From contig CAZJBV010000001.1 in NCBI GenBank assembly GCA_964544585.1, positions 119,717 to 183,716 of the forward strand: 64,000 nucleotides of DNA, written 5' to 3'. Both the position numbers and the translations under genes were made by a program. Below, in pieces: positions 54,241 through 62,651 of this stretch. Under the pieces are notes generated by a model. It was given only the letters and a program-made list of their open reading frames with translations. It did no database searches and had not been told where the DNA came from. Numbering within the stretch: position 1 is the stretch's first letter; each line of letters begins with the position of its first letter. The stretch is from an uncultured Gammaproteobacteria bacterium. Lineage in GTDB: Bacteria > Patescibacteriota > Microgenomatia > 2-02-FULL-39-11.

Positions 54241-54726
54241 TTATTCTTTTTTGATCATAGTGTCAATTACATCGTAGATAGTATCCCAGTCAAAACCTCT
54301 TCTTGCCAGGGCTCCTTCCAGTTTTTGTTTTAGTTCGACTTTTGGGAGATTTTTATATAAATTCAGTTTTTTTTGGGCGACTGTGAGAGCTTTTTCAAAT
54401 TCGCTGCGATACAATTTATTTACAGAGAAAAACTCTTCAATATCGGCTGTCGCGATGCCTTTTTGGCGAAGTTCTTGTTTTAAAAGCATTTTTCCTTTGG
54501 GTCGGAAAGTGTCTCTTTGATCGACCCACCATGAAATAAAAGCTTTATCCGAAACTAATTTTCGCTCTTCCAAGTCCGTAATGACTTTGTCGATTGTTTT
54601 TTTGGCGATACCGCGTTTAAAACTATATTGAAAAAGTTTGCCATAGAGTTCTTTTTGGGAACGGGGGCGAATTGATAAAAGTTTTAGGGCTTTATCGATA
54701 AGAAGTTGGTATTGATCTTGATCCAT
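54241..54726 (-). CDS. recX: regulatory protein RecX
   Basis: A 161-aa helical-repeat protein immediately downstream of recA. Confidence 0.75.
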   Translation of the reverse strand: MDQDQYQLLIDKALKLLSIRPRSQKELYGKLFQYSFKRGIAKKTIDKVITDLEERKLVSDKAFISWWVDQRDTFRPKGKMLLKQELRQKGIATADIEEFFSVNKLYRSEFEKALTVAQKKLNLYKNLPKVELKQKLEGALARRGFDWDTIYDVIDTMIKKE

Positions 54727-55754
54727 TAATCAGATTTTTCTCTACCTGTTTTTTCTTTGGCGTGGCCGGTTTTATGTGCTTTATATATTTGTTCCAAAAT
54801 TTCGCGGGCTAATTTATGATTTTCTTTTAAGTACATTTTGGCTGCTTCTCTACCCTGACCGAGCATGGTCGTCCCATACTTTAGAAAAGCGCCGGATTTG
54901 GTGATAATGCTATATTCTAGGCCAACATCGATAAGACCCCCTTCTCTGGATATACCACTACTATCGATATCGAATTCTGCAATTTTGAAGGGAGGCGAAA
55001 CTTTGTTTTTGACTATTCTTACCCTATGACGTGTTCCTACCACCTGATCCCCATCTTTAAGAGTCTCTATTTTCCTGATATCGATCCTAATTGAGGCATA
55101 AAACTTGAGGGCCAAGCCTCCGGGAGTCGTTTCGGGATTGCCAAACATAATGCCTATTTTTTGGCGCAGCTGATTGGTAAAAAGACAAATTGTTTTGGAC
55201 TTGGAGATAACGCCTGTGAGTTTGCGAAGTGCTTGGGACATGAGGCGGGCCTGCATACCCATGACAGCATCACCCATCTCGCCTTCGATTTCGGCTCGCG
55301 GGACTAGAGCTGCGACTGAATCTATAACGACGACATCAACTCCCCCAGACCTTATTAATGTCTCTGCAATTTCTAGGGCTTGCTCGCCTGTGTCGGGCTG
55401 GGAAATAAGAAGATCTTCCAGTTTGACACCCAGTCTTTCTGCCCAGACGGGATCGAGGGCGTGCTCGGCATCAATAAAGGCGGCTACACCTCCGTGCTTT
55501 TGGGCTTCGGCAATAACAGTCAGAGCAAGGGTTGTTTTTCCGGATGCCTCGGGGCCGAATATTTCGGCGATTCGCCCTTTAGGTAAGCCTCCTATTCCTA
55601 GGGCAAGATCGACGGCAATAGAACCTGTGGGGATAACATCAATTGTTAGTTTTTGGGTTGACTCGCCTAATTTCATGATAGATCCTTTGCCGTACTGCTT
55701 TTCTATCTGCTCCATCGCCAGTTTAATTGCTTGGAATTTTTGGTCGTTTGTCAT
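54726..55754 (-). CDS. recA: recombinase RecA
   Basis: Has Walker [10 protein letters not shown], the L1/L2 loops, and highly conserved sequence throughout. Confidence 0.95.
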
Positions 55755-55808: not shown

Positions 55809-57410
55809 TTACATAGATAATGCTAGAATACAATAGTTCAAAACGGGGTGTAGGTCATCGGTAGACCGCGCGCATGGGGTGCGTGAAGTAGTGGGTTCAA
55901 TTCCCGCCACCCCGACAGATAGAGAGTCCGCGAAGCGGACGGAAGGTTGGGTCTGCGCGCCCCCACTCGCGCAGACTTCTGCAAAGCCCTGATTATATTC
56001 TGGGACAAGCCGCCGATCAGTTAAAAAGAAGTTCGAGCCGACAGTTTTTGCCATGATCGACAGATCATGGGATGTATTTTTTGCGCGCGCGATTTTTGCG
56101 CACGATAGTGCGCTACCAATGAAGTTTTTGAAAGGTTCGAGCCAACTCGAACCATTTTGTTTTATTTGTTCTAATTCTTCACTTATTTTTAATTTTTCTT
56201 CGAAAAATTCGTTCTTTTTTGTCTTGTAAATTTCGGGGTCAATAATTCCTTCTAAGTAACCATCTAAGAGTTTATTAAGTTTTACATCAATATCTTTTAA
56301 TTGCTGCTCTAATTTTAGGGTATTATCGTGAATGGATACAGTCTCTAATTTCTCATCCTCATCTAGCCATTTATACCAATTACTAGCCCATTTTTCTGGT
56401 AATGCAACATCATCAATGGCTTTTCTAAATTGTTGTTCAAGCTCTGGTTCTGAAATGTAAGGTTGATTGCAGGGTTTAATTTTTTTAGTACATCTATAGT
56501 AAACATATTCAACAGTTCTATTTGTTCCTTTGTAGAATTTTTTATGAGATTCAGCGGTAATAGTTGCTCCACACTCTCCACATCTCATTAAACCCATAAA
56601 GGGGAAATTATATCTTCTTTTTTTATGTCTATCCCTAAACTTTAATTCTTGCTGGACTTTTTGGAATAACTCTTTACTTATAATAGTTTTATGAGTACCC
56701 TCGTGATATTCTCCGTTGTAATACATTATGCCTATGTAAAATCTGTCTGATAAAATCTGGCGGATTTGATTTATATGTAGGGGTTTATCAATTTTTCTTT
56801 TAAGGTCAAACTTATATAGAAAGGTCGCAATATCAGTAAAAGTTTTGTCGCCTTCGCTAAATAATTCAAAAGCCTTCTTAATTGCTTTTAGTTTTTCTCC
56901 ATCTACATCTATCCCACGGGTTTTAGGATTATTAATATACCCATAAGGAGCTTTGCCAGGATAAACACCATTGCGGATTTTTTGTCTTAACCCACGTCTT
57001 ACATTTTCAGATAAATTATCCACATAATATTTACTCTGACCAAAGGCAATATTTAACATAAATTTTCCCTGGGGAGTATTTTCAAACCAAGAGGTCGGAA
57101 ATTTTAAGTCCTTCAATTTCCCGGTATCTAAAAGGTAAATTATTTTCCCACCATCTATTGAGTTACGAGCTAATCTATCAGGATGCCACGCAATAATCCC
57201 TTGTATATGACCTTTTTCTATTTTCTTCAAAACTTCCGCAAATTTTTCTCTGCCCGGAATCTTGGCAGTTTTTTCTTCTTCAACAAATTCGGTAATTTCC
57301 AAATGCTCTCTTTTAGCGTATTCTTTTAGCTCGGCAATTTGAGCAGAGATAGATAAAATCTGTTTATCTTTTTCTTCTCTGGATTTTCTACAGTAAGCAA
57401 TGTATTTCAT
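55809..57410 (-). CDS. large serine recombinase (resolvase domain + recombinase domain + zinc ribbon)
   Basis: An N-terminal YCRKSREE...SISAQ catalytic-serine motif, a recombinase domain, and CGECG...YYRC. The last ~90 codons read through IR1-L and antisense tRNA-Pro (GIEPTTS), so the true C-terminus is uncertain. Confidence 0.8.
   Translation of the reverse strand: MKYIAYCRKSREEKDKQILSISAQIAELKEYAKREHLEITEFVEEEKTAKIPGREKFAEVLKKIEKGHIQGIIAWHPDRLARNSIDGGKIIYLLDTGKLKDLKFPTSWFENTPQGKFMLNIAFGQSKYYVDNLSENVRRGLRQKIRNGVYPGKAPYGYINNPKTRGIDVDGEKLKAIKKAFELFSEGDKTFTDIATFLYKFDLKRKIDKPLHINQIRQILSDRFYIGIMYYNGEYHEGTHKTIISKELFQKVQQELKFRDRHKKRRYNFPFMGLMRCGECGATITAESHKKFYKGTNRTVEYVYYRCTKKIKPCNQPYISEPELEQQFRKAIDDVALPEKWASNWYKWLDEDEKLETVSIHDNTLKLEQQLKDIDVKLNKLLDGYLEGIIDPEIYKTKKNEFFEEKLKISEELEQIKQNGSSWLEPFKNFIGSALSCAKIARAKNTSHDLSIMAKTVGSNFFLTDRRLVPEYNQGFAEVCASGGAQTQPSVRFADSLSVGVAGIEPTTSRTPCARSTDDLHPVLNYCILALSM
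55844..55915 (+). tRNA. tRNA-Pro (anticodon GGG)
   Basis: Cloverleaf: acceptor cggggtg/caccccg, D stem ggtc/gacc, anticodon stem cgcgc/gcgtg with loop aTGGGgt, T arm gtggg-ttcaatt-cccgc, discriminator A. Confidence 0.75.
55913..56015. repeat. IR1-L: 103-bp perfect inverted copy of 57519-57621
   Basis: Exact reverse complement of IR1-R. It starts 3 nt inside the 3' end of tRNA-Pro. It contains the internal hairpin gtctgcgcg-agtggggg-cgcgcagac. Confidence 0.9.
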
Positions 57411-57518
57411 TTTTTATTTTCCTCTTATAAGAAGAGTTCTTTTGCGAGCGAAGCGAGCAGTCCCGATGATATATCGGGACAAAATTTTTGCGTTCCTCGT
57501 TTTTTGTTCTTTTTAACC

Positions 57519-57700
57519 GGCGGCTTGTCCCAGAATATAATCAGGGCTTTGCAGAAGTCTGCGCGAGTGGGGGCGCGCAGACCCAACCTTCCGTCCGCTT
57601 CGCGGACTCTCTATCTGTCGACCTTTTTAAAAAAATCCGAACTCGCTTTAAGTCGAATCGGTAGGCGCGCTACGCGCGCCATCTTATCCGCTCGGCCTTC
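57519..57700. repeat. IR1-R (57519-57621) fused to IR2-L (57615-57700): the junction segment of two inverted-repeat-bounded modules
   Basis: The left 103 nt are the exact reverse complement of 55913-56015. The right 86 nt are the exact reverse complement of 62493-62578. Confidence 0.9.
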
Positions 57701-57850
57701 GGCCGAAGCTCTTAAACTGTCGGCCGAACCAGTCCGTAGGACTGCAAAAAACGCAAAAATTTTAAAGAACTTTTGTTATTTCTGTTTGCTTATTCCAATT
57801 TGGCATATTACATTTTGGAATATATCATATACTGTATCTTATTTTCAACT

Positions 57851-58078
57851 ATGAAAAAATCTATTTTTTCGGAGGATCATAAATATTTAGTAAGTCAACT
57901 TAAAAAAGCCAGAGAAGAAGCATCTCTTGAGCAAGAAGAGGTGGCTAAGTTACTTGGAAAAACTCAATCTTATATTTCAAAAATAGAGTCAGGTCAAAGA
58001 AGAATAGACATCGTTCAATTAAAACAATTTGCGAAGTTATACAAGAAAGAGGTTAATTTCTTTATTAAAAAGGCATGA
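57851..58078 (+). CDS. XRE-family HTH protein, probable R-M controller (C) protein
   Basis: A 75-aa Cro/C1-type HTH (QEEVAKLLGKTQSYISKIESGQR). Its stop overlaps the downstream ORF start (ATGA), as in C-R operons. Confidence 0.6.
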   Translation: MKKSIFSEDHKYLVSQLKKAREEASLEQEEVAKLLGKTQSYISKIESGQRRIDIVQLKQFAKLYKKEVNFFIKKA

Positions 58079-58920
58079 GAAGAAAAGAAATAATTAAATT
58101 TATCACCGGAATGATCGAAGAAGGTGGATTAACCTTTACTGATTATGCGACTAAACTCGAGGAGATAGTTAATAAACTATCGTTGGAAGATATAAAAATA
58201 AGCCTACTTGAATGTGGCGTAATCCCAGAGTCTTTTAATCACGATTCAACGGAAGAAAAATTATATTCAAAATATTCAGATATGTTACTTGCAAGAGCGT
58301 TCACATTCATCGGAATAGATTCCAAAGTTATTAAAGAAAGAGCAGATGCGGCAGATGTTGAGGGTAAAACTAAAGACTACACTCTTGTTGCAGATGGAAA
58401 GGTCTTTCGGTTAAGCCGAACTGCTAAGAATCAGAAGGATTTTAAGGTCGAAGCGTTAGATAAATGGAGGAACGGTAAAGATTTCGCTTGTTTGGTATCT
58501 CCTCTTTATCAATACCCTAAAAGTAAAAGTCAAATTTATAGACAAGCTATTGGTAGAAATGTTACCTTATTTTCCTATATCCACCTATATTTTATTCTCT
58601 CTCAAAATAAGTCGAACCAGTGCAACTATAAACCCTTATGGTTGGTTAGTAAGAAATTAAAAGGTGCAAAAGGAGCAGTAACTTATTGGAAGGGAATTGA
58701 TAAGACGCTTTGCAAAATCCTAAATAAAAGTCTAAAAGAGCTAGAAGCGATTAAAAAACTTGAGCTTGATTTACTAAAAGAATCTGCAAAAGAAGAAGTG
58801 GCATATATTGAAGGTAAAATTGAAACAATAAAATCATTATCACATACCGAGGCTATTGAGAGATTAATAAAAGCAGAAAAACTTGATCAGAAAATTAATC
58901 AAATAACAAGAATGGCTTGA
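58075..58920 (+). CDS. putative Type II restriction endonuclease (by context)
   Basis: A 281-aa protein with no family signature recognised. It is translationally coupled to the C-protein and convergent with the methyltransferase. There is a possible PD-(D/E)xK arrangement (GID ... DVEGK). Confidence 0.35.
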   Translation: MRRKEIIKFITGMIEEGGLTFTDYATKLEEIVNKLSLEDIKISLLECGVIPESFNHDSTEEKLYSKYSDMLLARAFTFIGIDSKVIKERADAADVEGKTKDYTLVADGKVFRLSRTAKNQKDFKVEALDKWRNGKDFACLVSPLYQYPKSKSQIYRQAIGRNVTLFSYIHLYFILSQNKSNQCNYKPLWLVSKKLKGAKGAVTYWKGIDKTLCKILNKSLKELEAIKKLELDLLKESAKEEVAYIEGKIETIKSLSHTEAIERLIKAEKLDQKINQITRMA

Positions 58921-60495
58921 TTAAAATAGAGGTTCCTGATTTACTTTACCATTTTTTGGATTAGAAACATAAGCTCCATTTAATCTTTTTTTGGCAATCT
59001 CGCAAAATTCACTGGAAATTTCAAAACCAATATATTTTCTATTAAGATTCTTTGCCGCAATAGCGGTCGAACCGGAACCAAGAAATGGATCCATAATAAC
59101 CTGACCATCTTTTGTTACAAGCCTAATTAAATATTCTAATAACTCCACTGGCTTCTGTGCTTCGTGTAGTCCTCCTTCGCCTTTGCCAAAACCAAACTGT
59201 AGAATATTTGTCGGAGATTTTCCGTTGATTAAAGACGCATCTATATTCATGGCTCCTACTTTATTTTTTAGTACATTATCTGTAATTGTAATTTCATAGG
59301 GTTTAAATAACCAGGCAATCGGTTCATATTTTGGCGCGAGATTACCAACCTTCCAACCTTCCCATTCCTTTGCTTCTTCTACCAATCCTCTTTTCTTAAT
59401 AATTTCACTTATATATTGAGCTCTGTGATGAGCATTTGGTTTTTCCCAAGCTAGGATATCTCTTAACAGAAACCCACTATCTTCAAGAGCTATAATTGCC
59501 CTGTGCAGAGTTCTTCTTGCGCCGAAAATAAATATACTTGCGCCTTCTTTTAAAGAAGGGTAGAGCTTTTTTGCCCACGAATAACACCATTCTTGGTATT
59601 CTTTTGGGATATTTCTGTCTGCGCTTGACCACCCATTAATAGGTTTTCCTCTTCTCCGAAATGCCTTTTTGCCTATCTGTGCAGGTGATTGTCCTAAAAG
59701 GGCGGAGTTTGTGTTAGCGTGTAAAACATCCCATTCATCCAGTGATATTCCATAAGGAATATCCGACAGAACTAGATCTATTGAATCCGGCTTCACCTTA
59801 TCTAGAAGTTCTATAGCATCACCACAAAGAATTTGATTTTCTTCAATATATTCGGATGGACTAACTTTATTTTCAGTTTCTGGAGGTAAATTAGTTTTGG
59901 TATTGAGATTTTTAATAATGTCAATAACAATTCCTTGCACAATTAAATTTTCTGGATCAACAAAAAATGGATCTAAACTTGAATTTGCTGGCTGAAGTCT
60001 TATTTTTCCTCTTTCCCTATATAATTTTTTCAAAGTTACTTCTGAATTGTTTATTAATGCAACTACTTTTTGTCCATTATCGGCTGTAGGTTGGCTTTTT
60101 ACTATTACTATATCTCCATGATCAATATTTTCATCAATCATACTTTGTCCAGCAACACGTAGGCCGTAGAAATCACCATTTTTCGGTATTTTTGATTTTG
60201 GTACTGCTATAAACTCTTTATCTTCAATAGCTAAAATTGGTTGTCCCGCAGCAATAGTGCCAAGCAGAGGAATCTGTACCATTTGCATCTCATCATACAC
60301 ATCAATTGCCCGAGGCTGATTTTCTTCTTTTCTTAACAAACCCAAATCTTCTAATGCCTTGACGTGATGATGGGCTGTTGAAACAGAGGATAGCCTTAAA
60401 TGCTTCTTTATTTCTTCCAAAGAAGGAGCATAACCATGTTTAGTTTTGTAGGATTTTATATATTCCAGAACTTGCTTTTGTCTTTTTGTAATCAT
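58921..60495 (-). CDS. LexA repressor (HTH + S24 peptidase) fused to a beta-class N4/N6 DNA amino-methyltransferase
   Basis: The N-terminal ~205 aa have the LexA architecture: a wHTH domain, the AAG cleavage site (TIAAGQP), catalytic Ser (AGQSM) and Lys (TLKKL). The C-terminal ~320 aa have motif IV SDIPYG preceding motif I DPFLGSGST (PF01555-like). It is a single open frame with no internal start. Confidence 0.75.
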   Translation of the reverse strand: MITKRQKQVLEYIKSYKTKHGYAPSLEEIKKHLRLSSVSTAHHHVKALEDLGLLRKEENQPRAIDVYDEMQMVQIPLLGTIAAGQPILAIEDKEFIAVPKSKIPKNGDFYGLRVAGQSMIDENIDHGDIVIVKSQPTADNGQKVVALINNSEVTLKKLYRERGKIRLQPANSSLDPFFVDPENLIVQGIVIDIIKNLNTKTNLPPETENKVSPSEYIEENQILCGDAIELLDKVKPDSIDLVLSDIPYGISLDEWDVLHANTNSALLGQSPAQIGKKAFRRRGKPINGWSSADRNIPKEYQEWCYSWAKKLYPSLKEGASIFIFGARRTLHRAIIALEDSGFLLRDILAWEKPNAHHRAQYISEIIKKRGLVEEAKEWEGWKVGNLAPKYEPIAWLFKPYEITITDNVLKNKVGAMNIDASLINGKSPTNILQFGFGKGEGGLHEAQKPVELLEYLIRLVTKDGQVIMDPFLGSGSTAIAAKNLNRKYIGFEISSEFCEIAKKRLNGAYVSNPKNGKVNQEPLF

Positions 60496-60602
60496 AGATA
60501 TTGACAGCTCAAGAATAATTCTATACAATTAGGTTAATCGAAAATGAATCGAAAGTCAAGTGGTTAAAATTTAACCTGAAGATTAAAGGGGGTGATGAAA
60601 AT

Positions 60603-60815
60603 ATGACTCATCGTAAAGGATCAAAACCAAATCATAAAGGAGAGCAGTGGACAGAATCACAAGTTGAGCGTCTTGAGAATTTGGCTAAAAGGAATACACC
60701 TACCCCTTTAATTGCAGATGCATTAGGTAGAACGGAGGGGGCAATAAGATCTAAAACATCGGAAGAGAATATTTCTCTTAAGCCAATCAATAAATCTCCC
60801 TATAGTAGAAGGTAA
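60603..60815 (+). CDS. small GcrA/Myb-like HTH protein
   Basis: W-T-E..V..L..L......P..IA..LGRT..A...K resembles the GcrA N-terminal/SANT-like DNA-binding fold. A good SD (aagggggtga) lies upstream. Confidence 0.35.
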   Translation: MTHRKGSKPNHKGEQWTESQVERLENLAKRNTPTPLIADALGRTEGAIRSKTSEENISLKPINKSPYSRR

Positions 60816-60836
60816 AATAGAATTGATAAAGCAATT

Positions 60837-61814
60837 ATGGACTTATTTTCGAAAGTCAAACCATCACTTTTTATAGCCCGTCCTTGGGATACATCCTTTG
60901 CTGAACTTTATGAACCCATTAAGAAAAACCTCGTTGGTAAATGGGAAATTAATGACGGCCCCCTTATAGTTAAAGAAGATGAGGCTCAAGCAGAAAGAGA
61001 AATGTTCATAGGTAGAAACAAGCAACTGTACGAACAGATTGTTTTAGGGATAAAGAAGTCAGATGTCTTTATTGCCGATGTAACAAATGCTAATGCAAAC
61101 GTTATGATGGAATTAGGAATTGCAATACAACTAAACAAAAATGTCATTATAGTGACAGGGCAAGATAGGAATAGACTCCCGTTTGATATACAGGGTTTTA
61201 AAGCAGAAAAATATGATAATATAAATGACCTCGGTGAAAAAATTGGAAATGGACTTTCTTTATATTTATCAATAAAAGAACAGAATTTTGATAAGCCCTT
61301 TCCAGAAAACCACATACCTATATCTGATGGGAAATTAACGGGACTTAGGGCAATAATGCCGATTCAACTTTCCAAACCTATTAAAAATTTAAAGCTGAGA
61401 ATCGAATACAAATTTGTAAATAAATCTGATGATCAGGATTGGCTAGGAATACATTTGCGAGCATCTCCCTCTATTCAACCTTCTGAATTAGTGTATGTTA
61501 GATCAAATGGTAGCTTAGAGATTGTAACGCTCCCTACCAGACCTGCACCCTCGGTAGGAGTAGATAAAGAAAATATAGATAACAGGTTAGAAGATGGATA
61601 CACTAGATTAGAACTAATTCTTGATGGCAATAAATTACTGGCCGCTACCTCAACTAAAGAGTTATATGACGATTTAATTCAAATAGAATCGTTCGGCAGT
61701 ATATTTCTTCAGGCAAATGGACATAGCCAAGATCCACAAAAACGAGAGAGTCTTGAGATTGATTTTAGAAATTTTGAAATTATTAATATAGATACGACAA
61801 GTCCTAACTCGTAA
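60837..61814 (+). CDS. nucleoside 2-deoxyribosyltransferase-like (NDT/TIR-like Rossmann) N-domain protein with unknown beta-rich C-domain
   Basis: The N-terminus (LFIARPW ... SDVFIADVTNANANVMMELGIAIQLNKNVIIV) resembles the PF05014/PF15891 fold. The C-terminal 180 aa are unassigned. Confidence 0.45.
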   Translation: MDLFSKVKPSLFIARPWDTSFAELYEPIKKNLVGKWEINDGPLIVKEDEAQAEREMFIGRNKQLYEQIVLGIKKSDVFIADVTNANANVMMELGIAIQLNKNVIIVTGQDRNRLPFDIQGFKAEKYDNINDLGEKIGNGLSLYLSIKEQNFDKPFPENHIPISDGKLTGLRAIMPIQLSKPIKNLKLRIEYKFVNKSDDQDWLGIHLRASPSIQPSELVYVRSNGSLEIVTLPTRPAPSVGVDKENIDNRLEDGYTRLELILDGNKLLAATSTKELYDDLIQIESFGSIFLQANGHSQDPQKRESLEIDFRNFEIINIDTTSPNS

Positions 61815-62492
61815 ATTATATTTTTATTTTTTAACCTTTGAAGCGGCTCCGCCGCCCCCGCCCTGTTGGGGATAATTTCCCTTAAAGGAGGGCTGCCGTC
61901 AGAAAAACTTTCAAGTAGGGAGCTAAAAGAAAATCTGGGATAGGCAGCCCGACAAACGCGAGAGCCGAGAGGAATATTTTCGGATTATAGAAAAACTCGG
62001 CTCGAGCCATCGGAATCAGTAGCGTAGCGAGCTCTCGAGAGCGAGCAAGCGGTGGGAAGCAGAAGGGGTACAAATAATAAAGGCGGGGGCGAAAAGCGGA
62101 ATACCCCCGCAACGGCAGGAGATACTAAAACAGAAAAAGGGGAGGCGAGGAGCGGCCGAAGGCTATTTTGTTCTTCGCTCCTCGCCGTGGTAGAGACTGT
62201 AAAGCGAAAATAGAAAACCCCTAATATGGGAAAGGCTCCCCCTAGGGAGCCCTCTCGCCCAAAAGCGGGGGTGCCGCTTCCTTTTAATTGGGTGGGAGGG
62301 ATGATGGGAATTTGTACCAGCGTATAGATATATGTTTTTAAAGGGAGCGTTAAGTTAGTTTTCCGCGGATGGGTGGGTTGGGCCAAGGAAAACATTTGTG
62401 TTTTTGTTACTTTACCTGTCCGCGTCAGCGGACTATAATAAATAAAAATCGCGCGCATTTCTGTCTTTGCAAAAAATACTAGAGCGAGGCCA
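61815..62492 (+). other. GC- and purine-rich non-coding segment with dense local hairpins (candidate structured RNA)
   Basis: No credible ORF. GC is far above background. There are multiple perfect hairpins (gaggcgaggagcg/cgctcctcgcc, ggctccccctagggagcc, gcgggggc...gcccccgc). Confidence 0.35.
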
Positions 62493-62578
62493 AAGGCCGA
62501 GCGGATAAGATGGCGCGCGTAGCGCGCCTACCGATTCGACTTAAAGCGAGTTCGGATTTTTTTAAAAAGGTCGACAGA
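62493..62578. repeat. IR2-R: 86-bp perfect inverted copy of 57615-57700
   Basis: Exact reverse complement. Contains the hairpin ggcgcgc-tac-gcgcgcc. Confidence 0.9.
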
Positions 62579-62651
62579 ATACGAATTCACAGAAGAAGAG
62601 TCACGGAGGCTCTGCGCGGGTGGGGGCGGGGGGGATCCTTCAAGAATTGAA

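What the first reader, a model, noticed from the sequence alone, without database searches (positions are those of the whole stretch)
55913..62578. Two perfect inverted-repeat pairs (103 bp and 86 bp) sharing a common junction segment
The 103-bp segment 57519-57621 is the exact reverse complement of 55913-56015. Together they bracket the recombinase gene. The immediately adjacent 86-bp segment 57615-57700 is the exact reverse complement of 62493-62578. Together they bracket the R-M-like cargo. Perfect identity over about 100 bp implies recent duplication or ongoing gene conversion. Inverted repeats flanking a serine recombinase are the substrate geometry for DNA inversion. Each repeat contains strong internal hairpins (gtctgcgcg...cgcgcagac and ggcgcgc-tac-gcgcgcc). 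The architecture suggests two invertible modules, one carrying the recombinase and one carrying the R-M and accessory genes. An alternative reading is tandem insertion sequence-like units with unusually long terminal inverted repeats.
Basis: seen in the sequence. Interest (0 to 1): 0.75.

Follow-up and report, generated by a model that had tools for sequence, protein, structure and literature searches.

The report
Recombinase island with inverted spare attachment site
The two long inverted repeats are real: they mark a small mobile island inserted at the end of a proline tRNA gene that carries a second, flipped copy of its own attachment site, a layout shared by dozens of relatives in Patescibacteria and apparently not described before.

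Summary
IR1 is 55913-56015 / 57518-57620 (103 nt, 100%). IR2 is 57614-57704 / 62488-62578 (91 nt, one mismatch). They are not two IS-like units. Oriented on the shared core CGACAGA, the three junctions read tRNA-Pro|core|A, B'|core|A (inverted) and B'|core|flank. That is attL, an intact inverted attP, and attR of a 6.7-kb element driven by a large serine recombinase (LSR).

The layout is a family trait. Of 80 related loci from Patescibacteria genomes, 65 have an inverted repeat at the recombinase 3' end and 60 have a convergent tRNA there. Thirty-four loci show the second pair, around cargo of 0.6-8.7 kb. Arms are about 98% identical within an element and about 55% between elements.

The attP arm carries a T-loop-like GTTCGAA 22 nt from the crossover. 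The real tRNA T-loop sits 18 nt away. The shared core can be as short as 2 nt, at tRNA positions 71-72.

Both modules keep almost the same orientation in relatives: cargo 0/35 flipped, recombinase rarely. So this is not a free-running switch. The role of the spare attP is unresolved.

The parts
55844..55916 (+). tRNA-Pro(GGG), the integration target. Its T-loop (GTTCAAT from 55895) and 3' acceptor strand form the bacterial (B-type) half-site. The last three bases (CGA, positions 71-73) belong to the shared core.
   Evidence: ARAGORN; Rfam tRNA 54.3 bits; the T-loop G lies 18 nt before the core.
55913..55919 (+). attL core CGACAGA. It is a direct repeat of the attR core and an inverted repeat of the internal core.
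   Evidence: Three-site alignment.
55913..56015 (+). Arm A, the P' arm of attP, here part of attL. On the minus strand it encodes the non-conserved C-terminal tail of the recombinase. It contains a 9-bp GC hairpin and a GAA-loop hairpin.
   Evidence: the protein alignment shows conservation ends near G475-F476, inside this arm.
55809..57410 (-). Large serine recombinase gene. The ORF is 533 aa; the conserved protein ends near aa 480. The ORF then reads through arm A and the antisense tRNA before meeting a stop.
   Evidence: Pfam Resolvase 2.7e-22, Recombinase 4e-14, Zn_ribbon_recom 2.8e-11. R8 and S10 are invariant. Nearest solved structure is SPbeta SprA/YokA, E 1.7e-12. Best NCBIfam hits CcrB and XisF are far below cut-off.
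57411..57517 (-). Recombinase leader. It holds one copy of the family-wide conserved module (ACGCAAAAATTTT at 57481-57494 as its reverse complement, AAAGAAC at about 57434-57444) and a hairpin at 57460-57480.
57518..57620 (+). Arm A', the exact reverse complement of arm A. It is the P' arm of the internal inverted attP (site X).
   Evidence: tblastn finds recombinase aa 452-499 re-encoded at 57473-57619.
57614..57620 (-). Core of the internal attP (TCTGTCG on the + strand), shared by both repeat pairs.
57614..57704 (+). Arm B, the P arm of the internal attP. It has a T-loop-like GTTCGGA (57636-57642 as its reverse complement) 22 nt from the core and two GC hairpins.
57714..57775 (+). Conserved flank of the internal attP: AAACTGTCGGCCGAAC (57714-57729), a hairpin (57730-57744), and a second, divergent copy of the conserved module AAAAAACGCAAAAATTTTAAAGAACTTTT (57745-57775) facing the cargo.
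   Evidence: present in nearly all loci; 28-34-nt 100% matches to many distant loci.
57851..60528 (.). Cargo, a type II restriction-modification system. It comprises an HTH controller protein (57851-58078 +), a HindIII-like endonuclease (58075-58920 +), and a LexA-N6/N4 methyltransferase fusion (58921-60528 -).
   Evidence: Pfam, PADLOC, NCBIfam lexA 182 bits. The same module at 68% identity is cargo of L034.
60603..61814 (+). Cargo: a 70-aa ORF and a 325-aa protein with a TIR / nucleoside 2-deoxyribosyltransferase-like core.
61840..62460 (+). GC-rich, ORF-free, conserved region at the far end of the cargo. It is a candidate structured non-coding RNA of the tRNA-Pro clade of these elements.
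   Evidence: Composition; 70-77% conserved in L011, L089, L012 and L013 beside the same arm; 12 of 51 predicted pairs show compensatory changes; no Rfam match.
62488..62578 (+). Arm B', the P arm, here part of attR. GTTCGGA starts at 62550, 22 nt before the core at 62572-62578.
62579..62640 (+). Host-side flank of attR. It contains a decayed copy of the arm-A hairpin (62609-62630) at the same distance from the core, probably the remnant of an older element's attL.
   Evidence: 17/18 match to 57558-57575; compare the tandem insertion in L108.

Best explanation
Positions 55913-62578 are a 6.7-kb integrative element inserted at the 3' end of tRNA-Pro(GGG) by its own large serine recombinase (LSR). 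The element carries two copies of its roughly 190-bp attachment site attP (P arm B', core, P' arm A).

One copy was split by integration. It now forms attL (tRNA|CGACAGA|A) and attR (B'|CGACAGA|flank). The other copy sits intact and inverted between the recombinase gene and the cargo. Arm A is therefore present at attL and at the internal site, which gives IR1. Arm B is present at the internal site and at attR, which gives IR2. The two pairs abut at the internal core.

Inferred chemistry: strand exchange occurs at a 2-bp crossover at tRNA positions 71-72. The enzyme reads the tRNA T-loop (18 nt from the crossover) in attB. It reads a T-loop mimic placed 4 nt further out (22 nt) in attP. The host-side half of attB is not conserved, so an occupied site (attL) can be targeted again, which builds tandem arrays.

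The arms stay about 98-100% identical within each element, most plausibly through gene conversion. Inverted orientation is the only one in which a second attP survives without deleting a module.

Inversion of the recombinase module by internal attP x attL is possible and is seen in a few relatives. Both modules are otherwise fixed in orientation, so this is not a free-running flip-flop.

My best guess for the function of the spare attP (inferred, about 0.35) is a cis-acting recombinase-binding site. It would sit between two divergent copies of a highly conserved 28-nt leader module and regulate recombinase and cargo expression. It could also compete with attR for attL, diverting the recombinase from risky excision into harmless inversion.
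For: Shown directly:
- The three-site alignment is a textbook attL / attP / attR triad, and arm A starts in the last 3 nt of the tRNA.
- The recombinase has the LSR domain set and catalytic residues.

Shown by comparison:
- Of 80 related loci from Patescibacteria genomes, 60 have a convergent tRNA within 400 nt of the recombinase 3' end, covering 12 amino-acid types.
- 65 have an inverted repeat at the recombinase 3' end. 51 of these are complete, with median length 105 nt and median identity 98.1%.
- 34 have the adjoining second pair (median 97 nt, 98.8% identity) around cargo of 583-8695 bp.
- Arms between elements are only 55-58% identical.
- An independent metagenome contig (L009) has the same 103-nt perfect pair on diverged sequence.
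- The shared core is 2-10 nt and starts 18 nt after T-loop G53 in the tRNA and 22 nt after GTTCGAA in the P arm. The offset is exactly +4 in 15 of the 23 automatically scored loci. The printed sequences show the four -7 values are regex mis-hits and the five unscored GTTCGAC loci also read 22 nt. The two -1 values (L029, L065) have no tRNA-like T-loop at attL, and the two +3 values stay unexplained.
- The core changes with the tRNA: CG for Pro, TC for Lys and Glu, GC for Arg, Tyr and Leu, CA for Gln, CT for Trp.
- L108 holds a hybrid site, with the P arm of one element joined to the core and P' arm of another through a shared CA and no flanking homology. That is site-specific exchange into an occupied attL.
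- L186 shows the junction expected for a circle or tandem copy: recombinase 3' end, core, then the far-end B arm.
- L081 has the recombinase between two inverted tRNA-Glu genes, as expected if the internal attP recombined with a second tRNA.
- Cargo differs between relatives while the arms and the flanking module persist.
Against: - No empty attB (tRNA-Pro joined directly to the right flank) was found; one exact-match scan of JGI metagenomes returned nothing.
- No proven circular form was found.
- No recombination directionality factor was identified or excluded.
- T-loop recognition and the 2-bp crossover are inferred from conserved spacing and minimal shared cores, not measured.
- The function of the internal attP is not established.
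- The near-fixed orientation of both modules is unexpected if the recombinase or RecA freely recombined identical 100-bp arms. Some bias or selection remains unexplained.
- The conserved 28-nt module does not look like a sigma-70 promoter, so 'operator between promoters' is an analogy only.
Confidence: 0.75

Rival explanations
1. It is a dedicated phase-variation system. A domesticated recombinase flips two segments (its own gene and the restriction-modification cargo) between inverted sites to switch expression.
For: The geometry fits. The recombinase lies inside one segment, as hin does in Salmonella. A few relatives have the recombinase module in the other orientation relative to the internal site.
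Against: Cargo orientation is standard in 29 of 35 loci and flipped in none. The recombinase is convergent with the tRNA in nearly all resolved loci. The conserved leader modules lie inside the segments, so inversion would not uncouple the genes from them. Cargo content is unrelated between relatives. Precise tRNA-end junctions, tandem arrays and hybrid sites show a mobile element.
Confidence: 0.1
2. The internal copy is a passive relic. An ancestral inverted duplication of the att region persists because inverted repeats are not deleted by homologous recombination. RecA-driven gene conversion keeps it identical, and the copy has no function.
For: Within-element identity of about 98% against about 55% between elements is the signature of gene conversion. 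Remnants of recombinase 3' coding sequence flank the arms, which suggests a history of nested insertions.
Against: The copy is retained at full length in nearly every member of a family that has diverged to about 50% protein identity and sits in very small, streamlined genomes. Its flanks carry the most conserved sequence of the whole element: 28-34 nt 100% identical between distant loci, always in the same arrangement. L081 suggests the copy is recombinationally active.
Confidence: 0.12
3. These are two adjacent IS-like or MITE-like units with unusually long terminal inverted repeats, one carrying the recombinase and one carrying the cargo.
For: Each unit is bounded by roughly 100-bp inverted repeats.
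Against: The recombinase is an LSR, which acts on short att sites, not on transposon ends. Arms A and B are unrelated to each other and together make one site with a T-loop mimic. The outer junction is the tRNA end. There are no target duplications around either unit. There is only one copy in the 64-kb window. In relatives the two units are always adjacent and in the same order.
Confidence: 0.03
4. It is an assembly artefact. Reads from integrated and excised forms, or strain mixtures, were joined into a chimeric path that contains an inverted attP.
For: Many contigs of relatives end inside or next to the internal arm. Logan contigs of the source samples break near these repeats. L073 and L093 look like fold-back or chimeric assemblies.
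Against: The junctions recombinase-leader|A' and B|cargo-flank are unique sequences that must exist in reads. The same architecture recurs with diverged sequence in more than 50 assemblies made by different groups and assemblers, including records labelled complete genome or chromosome (L064, L086).
Confidence: 0.02

Closest known systems
Serine-integrase (large serine recombinase) prophages and elements such as phiC31, Bxb1, A118/LI and SPbeta SprA
   Same: Resolvase + Recombinase + Zn-ribbon architecture. attP lies next to the integrase gene. The identity between sites is very short and a 2-bp crossover is inferred. The recognition motif sits further out in attP than in attB (here +4 nt; about 5 bp in the LI integrase model, from my own knowledge).
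   Different: This element carries a second, complete, inverted attP. The repeated arms are about 100 bp, against about 25-bp half-sites. The target is the tRNA T-arm and acceptor end, with a host-side half that is not conserved. No directionality factor is identified. Sequence relation is distant: SprA E 1.7e-12.
tRNA-gene genomic islands (Islander-type tyrosine-integrase islands) and tycheposons of Prochlorococcus
   Same: Integration at tRNA 3' ends, small variable cargo in streamlined genomes, and tandem accretion at one tRNA. A minority of tycheposons use LSRs (bioRxiv 10.1101/2020.12.28.424599).
   Different: Those islands duplicate a tRNA fragment as direct repeats. They are not reported to hold an internal inverted att site. 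Most use tyrosine recombinases.
Hin/Gin/Cin/Pin DNA invertase systems
   Same: A serine recombinase and inverted sites. In Hin the recombinase gene lies inside the invertible segment.
   Different: Those enzymes are small (about 190 aa). Their sites are 26 bp and depend on a Fis enhancer. The segments flip freely and switch gene expression. Here the orientation is nearly fixed and the sites are att sites of a mobile element.
Yeast 2-micron plasmid (FLP/FRT)
   Same: The deduced excised circle would have two long inverted copies of the recombination site. They would split the circle into two unique segments, one of which encodes the recombinase.
   Different: FLP is a tyrosine recombinase. Its inversion serves copy-number amplification of a replicon. 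No replication genes are seen here, and some elements have only about 0.6 kb of cargo.
Tn3 / gamma-delta res site with resolvase
   Same: A serine-recombinase site placed between two divergent transcription units, where binding could autoregulate both.
   Different: Resolvase is a small serine recombinase, res sites act as direct repeats, and their role is cointegrate resolution.
SCCmec CcrA/CcrB recombinases
   Same: They are the best NCBIfam matches. They are LSRs that both integrate and excise a cargo cassette at the 3' end of a conserved gene without a known directionality factor (the last point from my own knowledge).
   Different: The score of 110 bits is far below the 900-bit cut-off. 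Those systems use two recombinases, target rlmH, and have no internal inverted att site.

Membership tests
Large serine recombinase (serine integrase) family | N-terminal resolvase catalytic domain with the Ser nucleophile and a conserved Arg | tested here: met
   PF00239 E 2.7e-22 over aa 4-149. Y6, R8 and S10 are invariant in 16 homologues.
Large serine recombinase (serine integrase) family | Recombinase domain plus zinc-ribbon domain C-terminal to the catalytic domain | tested here: met
   PF07508 E 4e-14 and PF13408 E 2.8e-11. The match to SPbeta SprA covers aa 4-409.
Large serine recombinase (serine integrase) family | Coiled-coil motif inserted in the zinc-ribbon domain that controls synapsis | not tested
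   No structure prediction was run. The region at about aa 340-420 is compatible in length only.
Large serine recombinase (serine integrase) family | Recombination at a 2-bp crossover between sites with little other identity | tested here: inconclusive
   The shared core is only GC in L025 and L033. The hybrid site in L108 is joined through CA. This is consistent but not a biochemical mapping.
Site-specific integrative element at a tRNA gene | One end lies inside or at the 3' end of a tRNA gene, with the integrase gene next to it | tested here: met
   Arm A starts at tRNA position 71. The recombinase gene is adjacent. The same holds in 60 of 80 relatives.
Site-specific integrative element at a tRNA gene | Direct repeat of the crossover region at both ends | tested here: met
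   CGACAGA occurs at 55913-55919 and at 62572-62578.
Site-specific integrative element at a tRNA gene | Empty target site in related genomes, or a circular junction | tested here: inconclusive
   The exact-match scan for the predicted attB found nothing. L186 shows a circle-or-tandem type junction in a relative.
Site-specific integrative element at a tRNA gene | Variable cargo between conserved ends in relatives | tested here: met
   Cargo ranges from 583 to 8695 bp with unrelated genes.
Serine DNA invertase switch (Hin/Gin type) | Small recombinase (about 190 aa) with a C-terminal HTH | tested here: not met
   The conserved protein is about 480 aa with integrase-type domains.
Serine DNA invertase switch (Hin/Gin type) | Both orientations of the segment common in populations or relatives | tested here: not met
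   Cargo is flipped in 0 of 35 loci. The recombinase module is flipped only in rare relatives.
Insertion sequence or transposon with terminal inverted repeats | Element ends are inverted repeats bound by a transposase, with flanking target-site duplications and multiple copies | tested here: not met
   The enzyme is an LSR. The arms are halves of one att site. There is a single copy in the window. No target-site duplications flank either unit.
SCCmec-type Ccr recombinases | Score above the NCBIfam equivalog cut-off | tested here: not met
   CcrB scores 110 bits against a cut-off of 900. XisF scores 110 bits against 375.

The most novel reading that the evidence does not exclude
These elements are a previously unrecognised class of serine-integrase mobile element. 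Two properties would define the class. First, the enzyme reads the universal tRNA T-loop plus a 2-nt crossover that co-varies with the tRNA, which makes the family naturally retargetable to many tRNAs. Second, a built-in inverted attP is a functional control device. It could be a cis decoy or partner for attL, or an accessory site that replaces a directionality factor, letting an RDF-less integrase choose between harmless inversion and excision.
Probability: 0.3. Interest if true: 0.8.

Novelty: new variant of a known kind. Interest (0 to 1): 0.62.

Why it matters
Large serine recombinases are leading tools for inserting large DNA into genomes, and their site choice and directionality are the main engineering limits. 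This is a large natural family: 7634 of the 8000 scored candidates reached E <= 1e-10 in the protein search, and 586 hits came from species-representative genomes.

Three features bear on those limits. The attP/attB logic can be read from sequence: a T-loop motif at 18 versus 22 nt and a crossover dinucleotide that tracks the tRNA. The host-side half-site appears dispensable. Every member also keeps an extra inverted attP that no current model of serine integrases requires.

The family is also a major, undescribed vehicle of accessory genes, including restriction-modification and TIR-like defence genes, in Patescibacteria. Mobile elements of that group are poorly known.

Tried and rejected
- Megablast of the whole element against phage and plasmid collections found no match.
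- IMG/VR viral contigs gave only two distant (40%) relatives, so the family is not phage-borne.
- Rfam gave nothing except the tRNA.
- Exact-protein look-ups of the recombinase and the signal peptidase failed. Logan contigs of the source samples break near the repeats and cannot show orientation, because k=31 is shorter than the arms.
- The scan for the predicted empty attB returned nothing.
Only 6 of the 120 encode a relative; the rest are chance matches.
- The idea that the GC-rich region 61840-62460 is a decayed recombinase gene is rejected, because tblastn finds no similarity.
- The idea that the conserved 28-nt module is a sigma-70 promoter has no convincing hexamers. The only good promoter-like site near the internal attP (TTAACC-17-TATAAT, 57513-57541) is specific to this clade.
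- The idea that the arm hairpins are canonical intrinsic terminators is rejected, because they lack T-runs.
- A single-stranded 'dumbbell attP' model like that of phage CTX was considered. It was set aside as a substrate for integration. A serine recombinase cuts all four strands, so the chromosome would be left with hairpin ends. A splint role in circularising imported single-stranded DNA stays possible but untestable here.
- Five full-text literature searches found no description of this architecture.

Full report
**Observation.** Both inverted-repeat pairs are in the sequence. IR1 is 55913-56015 / 57518-57620 (103 nt, 100%). IR2 is 57614-57704 / 62488-62578 (91 nt, one mismatch at 57700; 86 nt are perfect). 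The pairs overlap in a 7-nt core, TCTGTCG at 57614-57620. The same core occurs as CGACAGA at the outer end of each partner arm. Neither repeat extends one base further. No other copy exists in the window.

ARAGORN and Rfam place tRNA-Pro(GGG) at 55844-55916, so arm A begins in the last three bases of the tRNA. Oriented on the core, the three junctions are:
- ATTCCCGCCACCCCGACAGATAGAGAGTCCG (tRNA|core|A)
- TTTTTAAAAAGGTCGACAGATAGAGAGTCCG (B'|core|A, on the opposite strand)
- TTTTTAAAAAGGTCGACAGAATACGAATTCA (B'|core|flank)

This is attL, an intact attP in inverted orientation, and attR. IR1 exists because attL and the internal attP share the P' arm. IR2 exists because the internal attP and attR share the P arm.

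**Genes.** The gene between the IR1 arms is a large serine recombinase with Resolvase, Recombinase and Zn-ribbon domains and invariant R8 and S10. Its nearest solved relative is SPbeta SprA. Its best named families, CcrB and XisF, score far below their cut-offs. The conserved protein ends near aa 480, inside arm A. The ORF then runs on through the core and the antisense tRNA. The cargo comprises:
- a type II restriction-modification system, with an HTH controller, a HindIII-like endonuclease, and a methyltransferase fused to a complete LexA;
- a 70-aa ORF;
- a TIR-like protein;
- a 600-nt GC-rich non-coding region.

The host is a Patescibacteria-type genome with recA, recX and RNase Y next to the tRNA.

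**A family trait, not a local accident.** The protein search gave 7634 hits at E <= 1e-10 among the 8000 candidates scored, mostly from Microgenomates and Patescibacteria. Their C-terminal tails translate an antisense tRNA T-arm (..SLSVGV.GIEP..), which shows they also abut tRNA genes. An independent metagenome contig (L009, 84% protein identity) has a 103-nt perfect pair at the same place, on diverged sequence, with a homologous B' arm.

A scan of one genome per species returned 586 relatives, and I analysed the best 80. The counts are:
- 60 have a convergent tRNA within 400 nt of the recombinase 3' end. The tRNAs are Pro, Lys, Leu, Val, Tyr, Arg, Glu, Gly, Trp, Gln, Ser and Ile.
- 65 have an inverted repeat with one arm at that 3' end. 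51 of these are complete, with median length 105 nt and median identity 98.1%; 13 are perfect.
- 34 also show the second pair starting within a few bases of the upstream arm (median 97 nt, 98.8% identity), around cargo of 583-8695 bp.

Arms of different elements are only 55-58% identical. The duplication is therefore old and evolves in concert. Many contigs stop in the internal arm. Even so, the unique junction sequences and the recurrence across assemblers, including records labelled complete genome or chromosome, rule out an artefact.

**Anatomy of the att site.** The core shared by all three sites is 2-10 nt, most often 4-5 nt. It is only GC in L025 and L033. In 21 of 28 loci it starts 18 nt after G53 of the tRNA T-loop. 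In 17 of the 23 automatically scored loci it starts 22 nt after a T-loop-like GTTCGAA in the P arm. The printed sequences show that three further loci (regex mis-hits) and the five unscored GTTCGAC loci also read 22 nt. The offset is exactly +4 nt in 15 of the 23 loci where both motifs were scored. Of the other eight:
- the four -7 values are regex mis-hits;
- two (L029, L065) have no tRNA-like T-loop at attL;
- two read +3 and are not explained.

A more distal recognition motif in attP than in attB is what the structural model of serine integrases predicts (my own knowledge of the LI integrase work, not tested here). The first two core bases correspond to tRNA positions 71-72 and change with the tRNA. 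The host-side flank shows no conservation.

L108 supports site-specific exchange. There the P arm of one element is joined to the core and P' arm of another through a shared CA, with no flanking homology. This is what integration into an occupied attL would produce. The window's own right flank holds a decayed arm-A hairpin at the right distance from the core, which suggests the same history.

**Surroundings of the internal attP.** These are also conserved. On the cargo side lie GTTCGAGCCGAC-like sequence, a hairpin and AAAATTTTTGCGTTTTT..AAAGTTCTTT. On the recombinase side lies the inverse, AAAAACGCAAAAATT..TTAAAGAACTTTT, followed by the start codon. This 28-nt module is the most conserved DNA in the family, 100% identical between loci whose recombinases share about 55% identity. 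It always flanks the internal site divergently.

**Do the modules invert?** Three kinds of junction follow the recombinase 3' end in nature.
- tRNA: the standard case.
- Arm B with the internal-site type of flank (L092, L093, L097). Here the recombinase module is flipped relative to the internal attP. Seven of 120 homologues have the matching tail ..KIRT.F...
- Arm B with the far-end type of flank (L186, L108, L215). This is a circle or tandem junction.

L081 has the recombinase between two inverted tRNA-Glu genes. That is expected if the internal attP recombined with a second tRNA on the chromosome. So the internal site appears to be active.

Even so, only 2 of the 80 genome loci have a tRNA upstream of the recombinase. 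The cargo is in the standard orientation in 29 of 35 loci, undetermined in 6, and flipped in none. The element is therefore not a free-running flip-flop. Something biases or selects one isomer.

**Mechanism.** What is shown:
- the triad of sites;
- the enzyme class;
- the tRNA-end target;
- family-wide conservation;
- concerted evolution of the arms;
- hybrid and tandem junctions.

What is inferred:
- crossover at tRNA positions 71-72;
- T-loop reading with a 4-nt shift;
- a dispensable host-side half-site;
- gene conversion as the homogeniser;
- inverted orientation as the only stable way to keep a second attP.

The purpose of that second attP is open. My preferred reading (about 0.35) is a cis-acting recombinase-binding site between the two divergent leader modules, by analogy with res in Tn3. 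It would also be a nearby partner for attL that diverts the enzyme from excision to harmless inversion. Other readings remain possible:
- an accessory site that replaces a directionality factor;
- a splint for circularising imported single-stranded DNA;
- a 2-micron-like isomerisation;
- a functionless relic.

**Comparison and novelty.** The element is a member of the large serine recombinase superfamily and of the broad class of tRNA-targeting integrative elements. It fails the defining features of invertase switches and of IS elements. Five full-text searches found no description of an internal inverted attP or of T-loop-reading serine integrases in Patescibacteria. I rate it a new variant of a known kind.

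**Side finding.** The region 61840-62460 is conserved in four relatives beside the same arm, and 12 of 51 predicted base pairs change on both sides while keeping the pair. It has no Rfam match and is a candidate structured RNA.

Noticed in passing
window 61840-62460 (+): GC-rich (about 50%), G-skewed, ORF-free region. It is conserved at 70-77% in L011, L089, L012 and L013, always beside the far-end B arm. RNAalifold predicts 51 pairs, 12 with compensatory changes, including long-range helices. There is no Rfam match. It is a candidate new structured non-coding RNA carried by the tRNA-Pro clade of these elements.
   Followed up: partly
window 58921-60528 (-): A complete LexA (DNA-binding domain plus S24 self-cleaving peptidase; TIGR00498 182 bits, above cut-off) is fused to the N6/N4 methyltransferase of a HindIII-like restriction-modification system with a controller protein. 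This hints at damage-responsive control of methylation. The same module at 68% identity is cargo of L034.
   Followed up: partly
window 60837-61814 (+): A 325-aa cargo protein whose core weakly matches nucleoside 2-deoxyribosyltransferase and TIR effector domains (Pfam 6.8e-07, PADLOC TIR 3.4e-08). It may be a defence effector.
   Followed up: no
window 62590-62640: Just outside attR lies a decayed copy of the arm-A hairpin (ggctctgcgcgggtgggggcg, 17/18 match to 57558-57575), at the same distance from the core as in arm A. The present element probably inserted into the attL of an older element that has since decayed.
   Followed up: partly
window 62427-62480 versus 56085-56114; L186 1307-1365 versus 1591-1649: The cargo's far end carries an inverted remnant of the recombinase codons AKIARAKN. 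It is 77% identical here and 95% over 60 nt in L186. The split attP copy is therefore embedded in a larger imperfect palindrome.
   Followed up: partly
window 57481-57494 and 57745-57775; most loci L011-L089: A 28-nt module, AAAAACGCAAAAATTTTAAAGAACTTTT, is present twice. The copies sit divergently on either side of the internal attP and are 100% identical between elements whose recombinases are about 55% identical. It does not resemble a sigma-70 promoter.
   Followed up: partly
L214 3958-6411, L215 3416-6151 (proteins P0092, P0062; also P0010-P0016): 'Recombinases' of about 900 aa are read-through fusions of one recombinase with a 5'-truncated second copy, inside tandem arrays of elements. 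The arrays contain several perfect arm pairs.
   Followed up: partly
window 56134-56153: The recombinase codons GSSWLEP form a hairpin, GGTTCGAGCCAACTCGAACC, that contains the T-loop-like GTTCGAG. It could act as a pseudo-target inside recombinase genes and may explain the truncated copies in arrays.
   Followed up: no
L011 270-1340, L040 4237-5244 versus window 54726-55754: recA lies next to tRNA-Pro in the window, L013, L031 and L019. In L011 and L040 it lies on the attR side. The whole segment of tRNA plus element is inverted relative to recA in some species.
   Followed up: partly
window 55950-55975 versus L009 995-1020 and L089: The 8-nt loop of the arm-A hairpin is inverted between relatives: CCCCCACT here against GGAGGGGG or GGTGGGGG there. 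The stem is kept. This resembles hairpin-mediated loop flipping.
   Followed up: no
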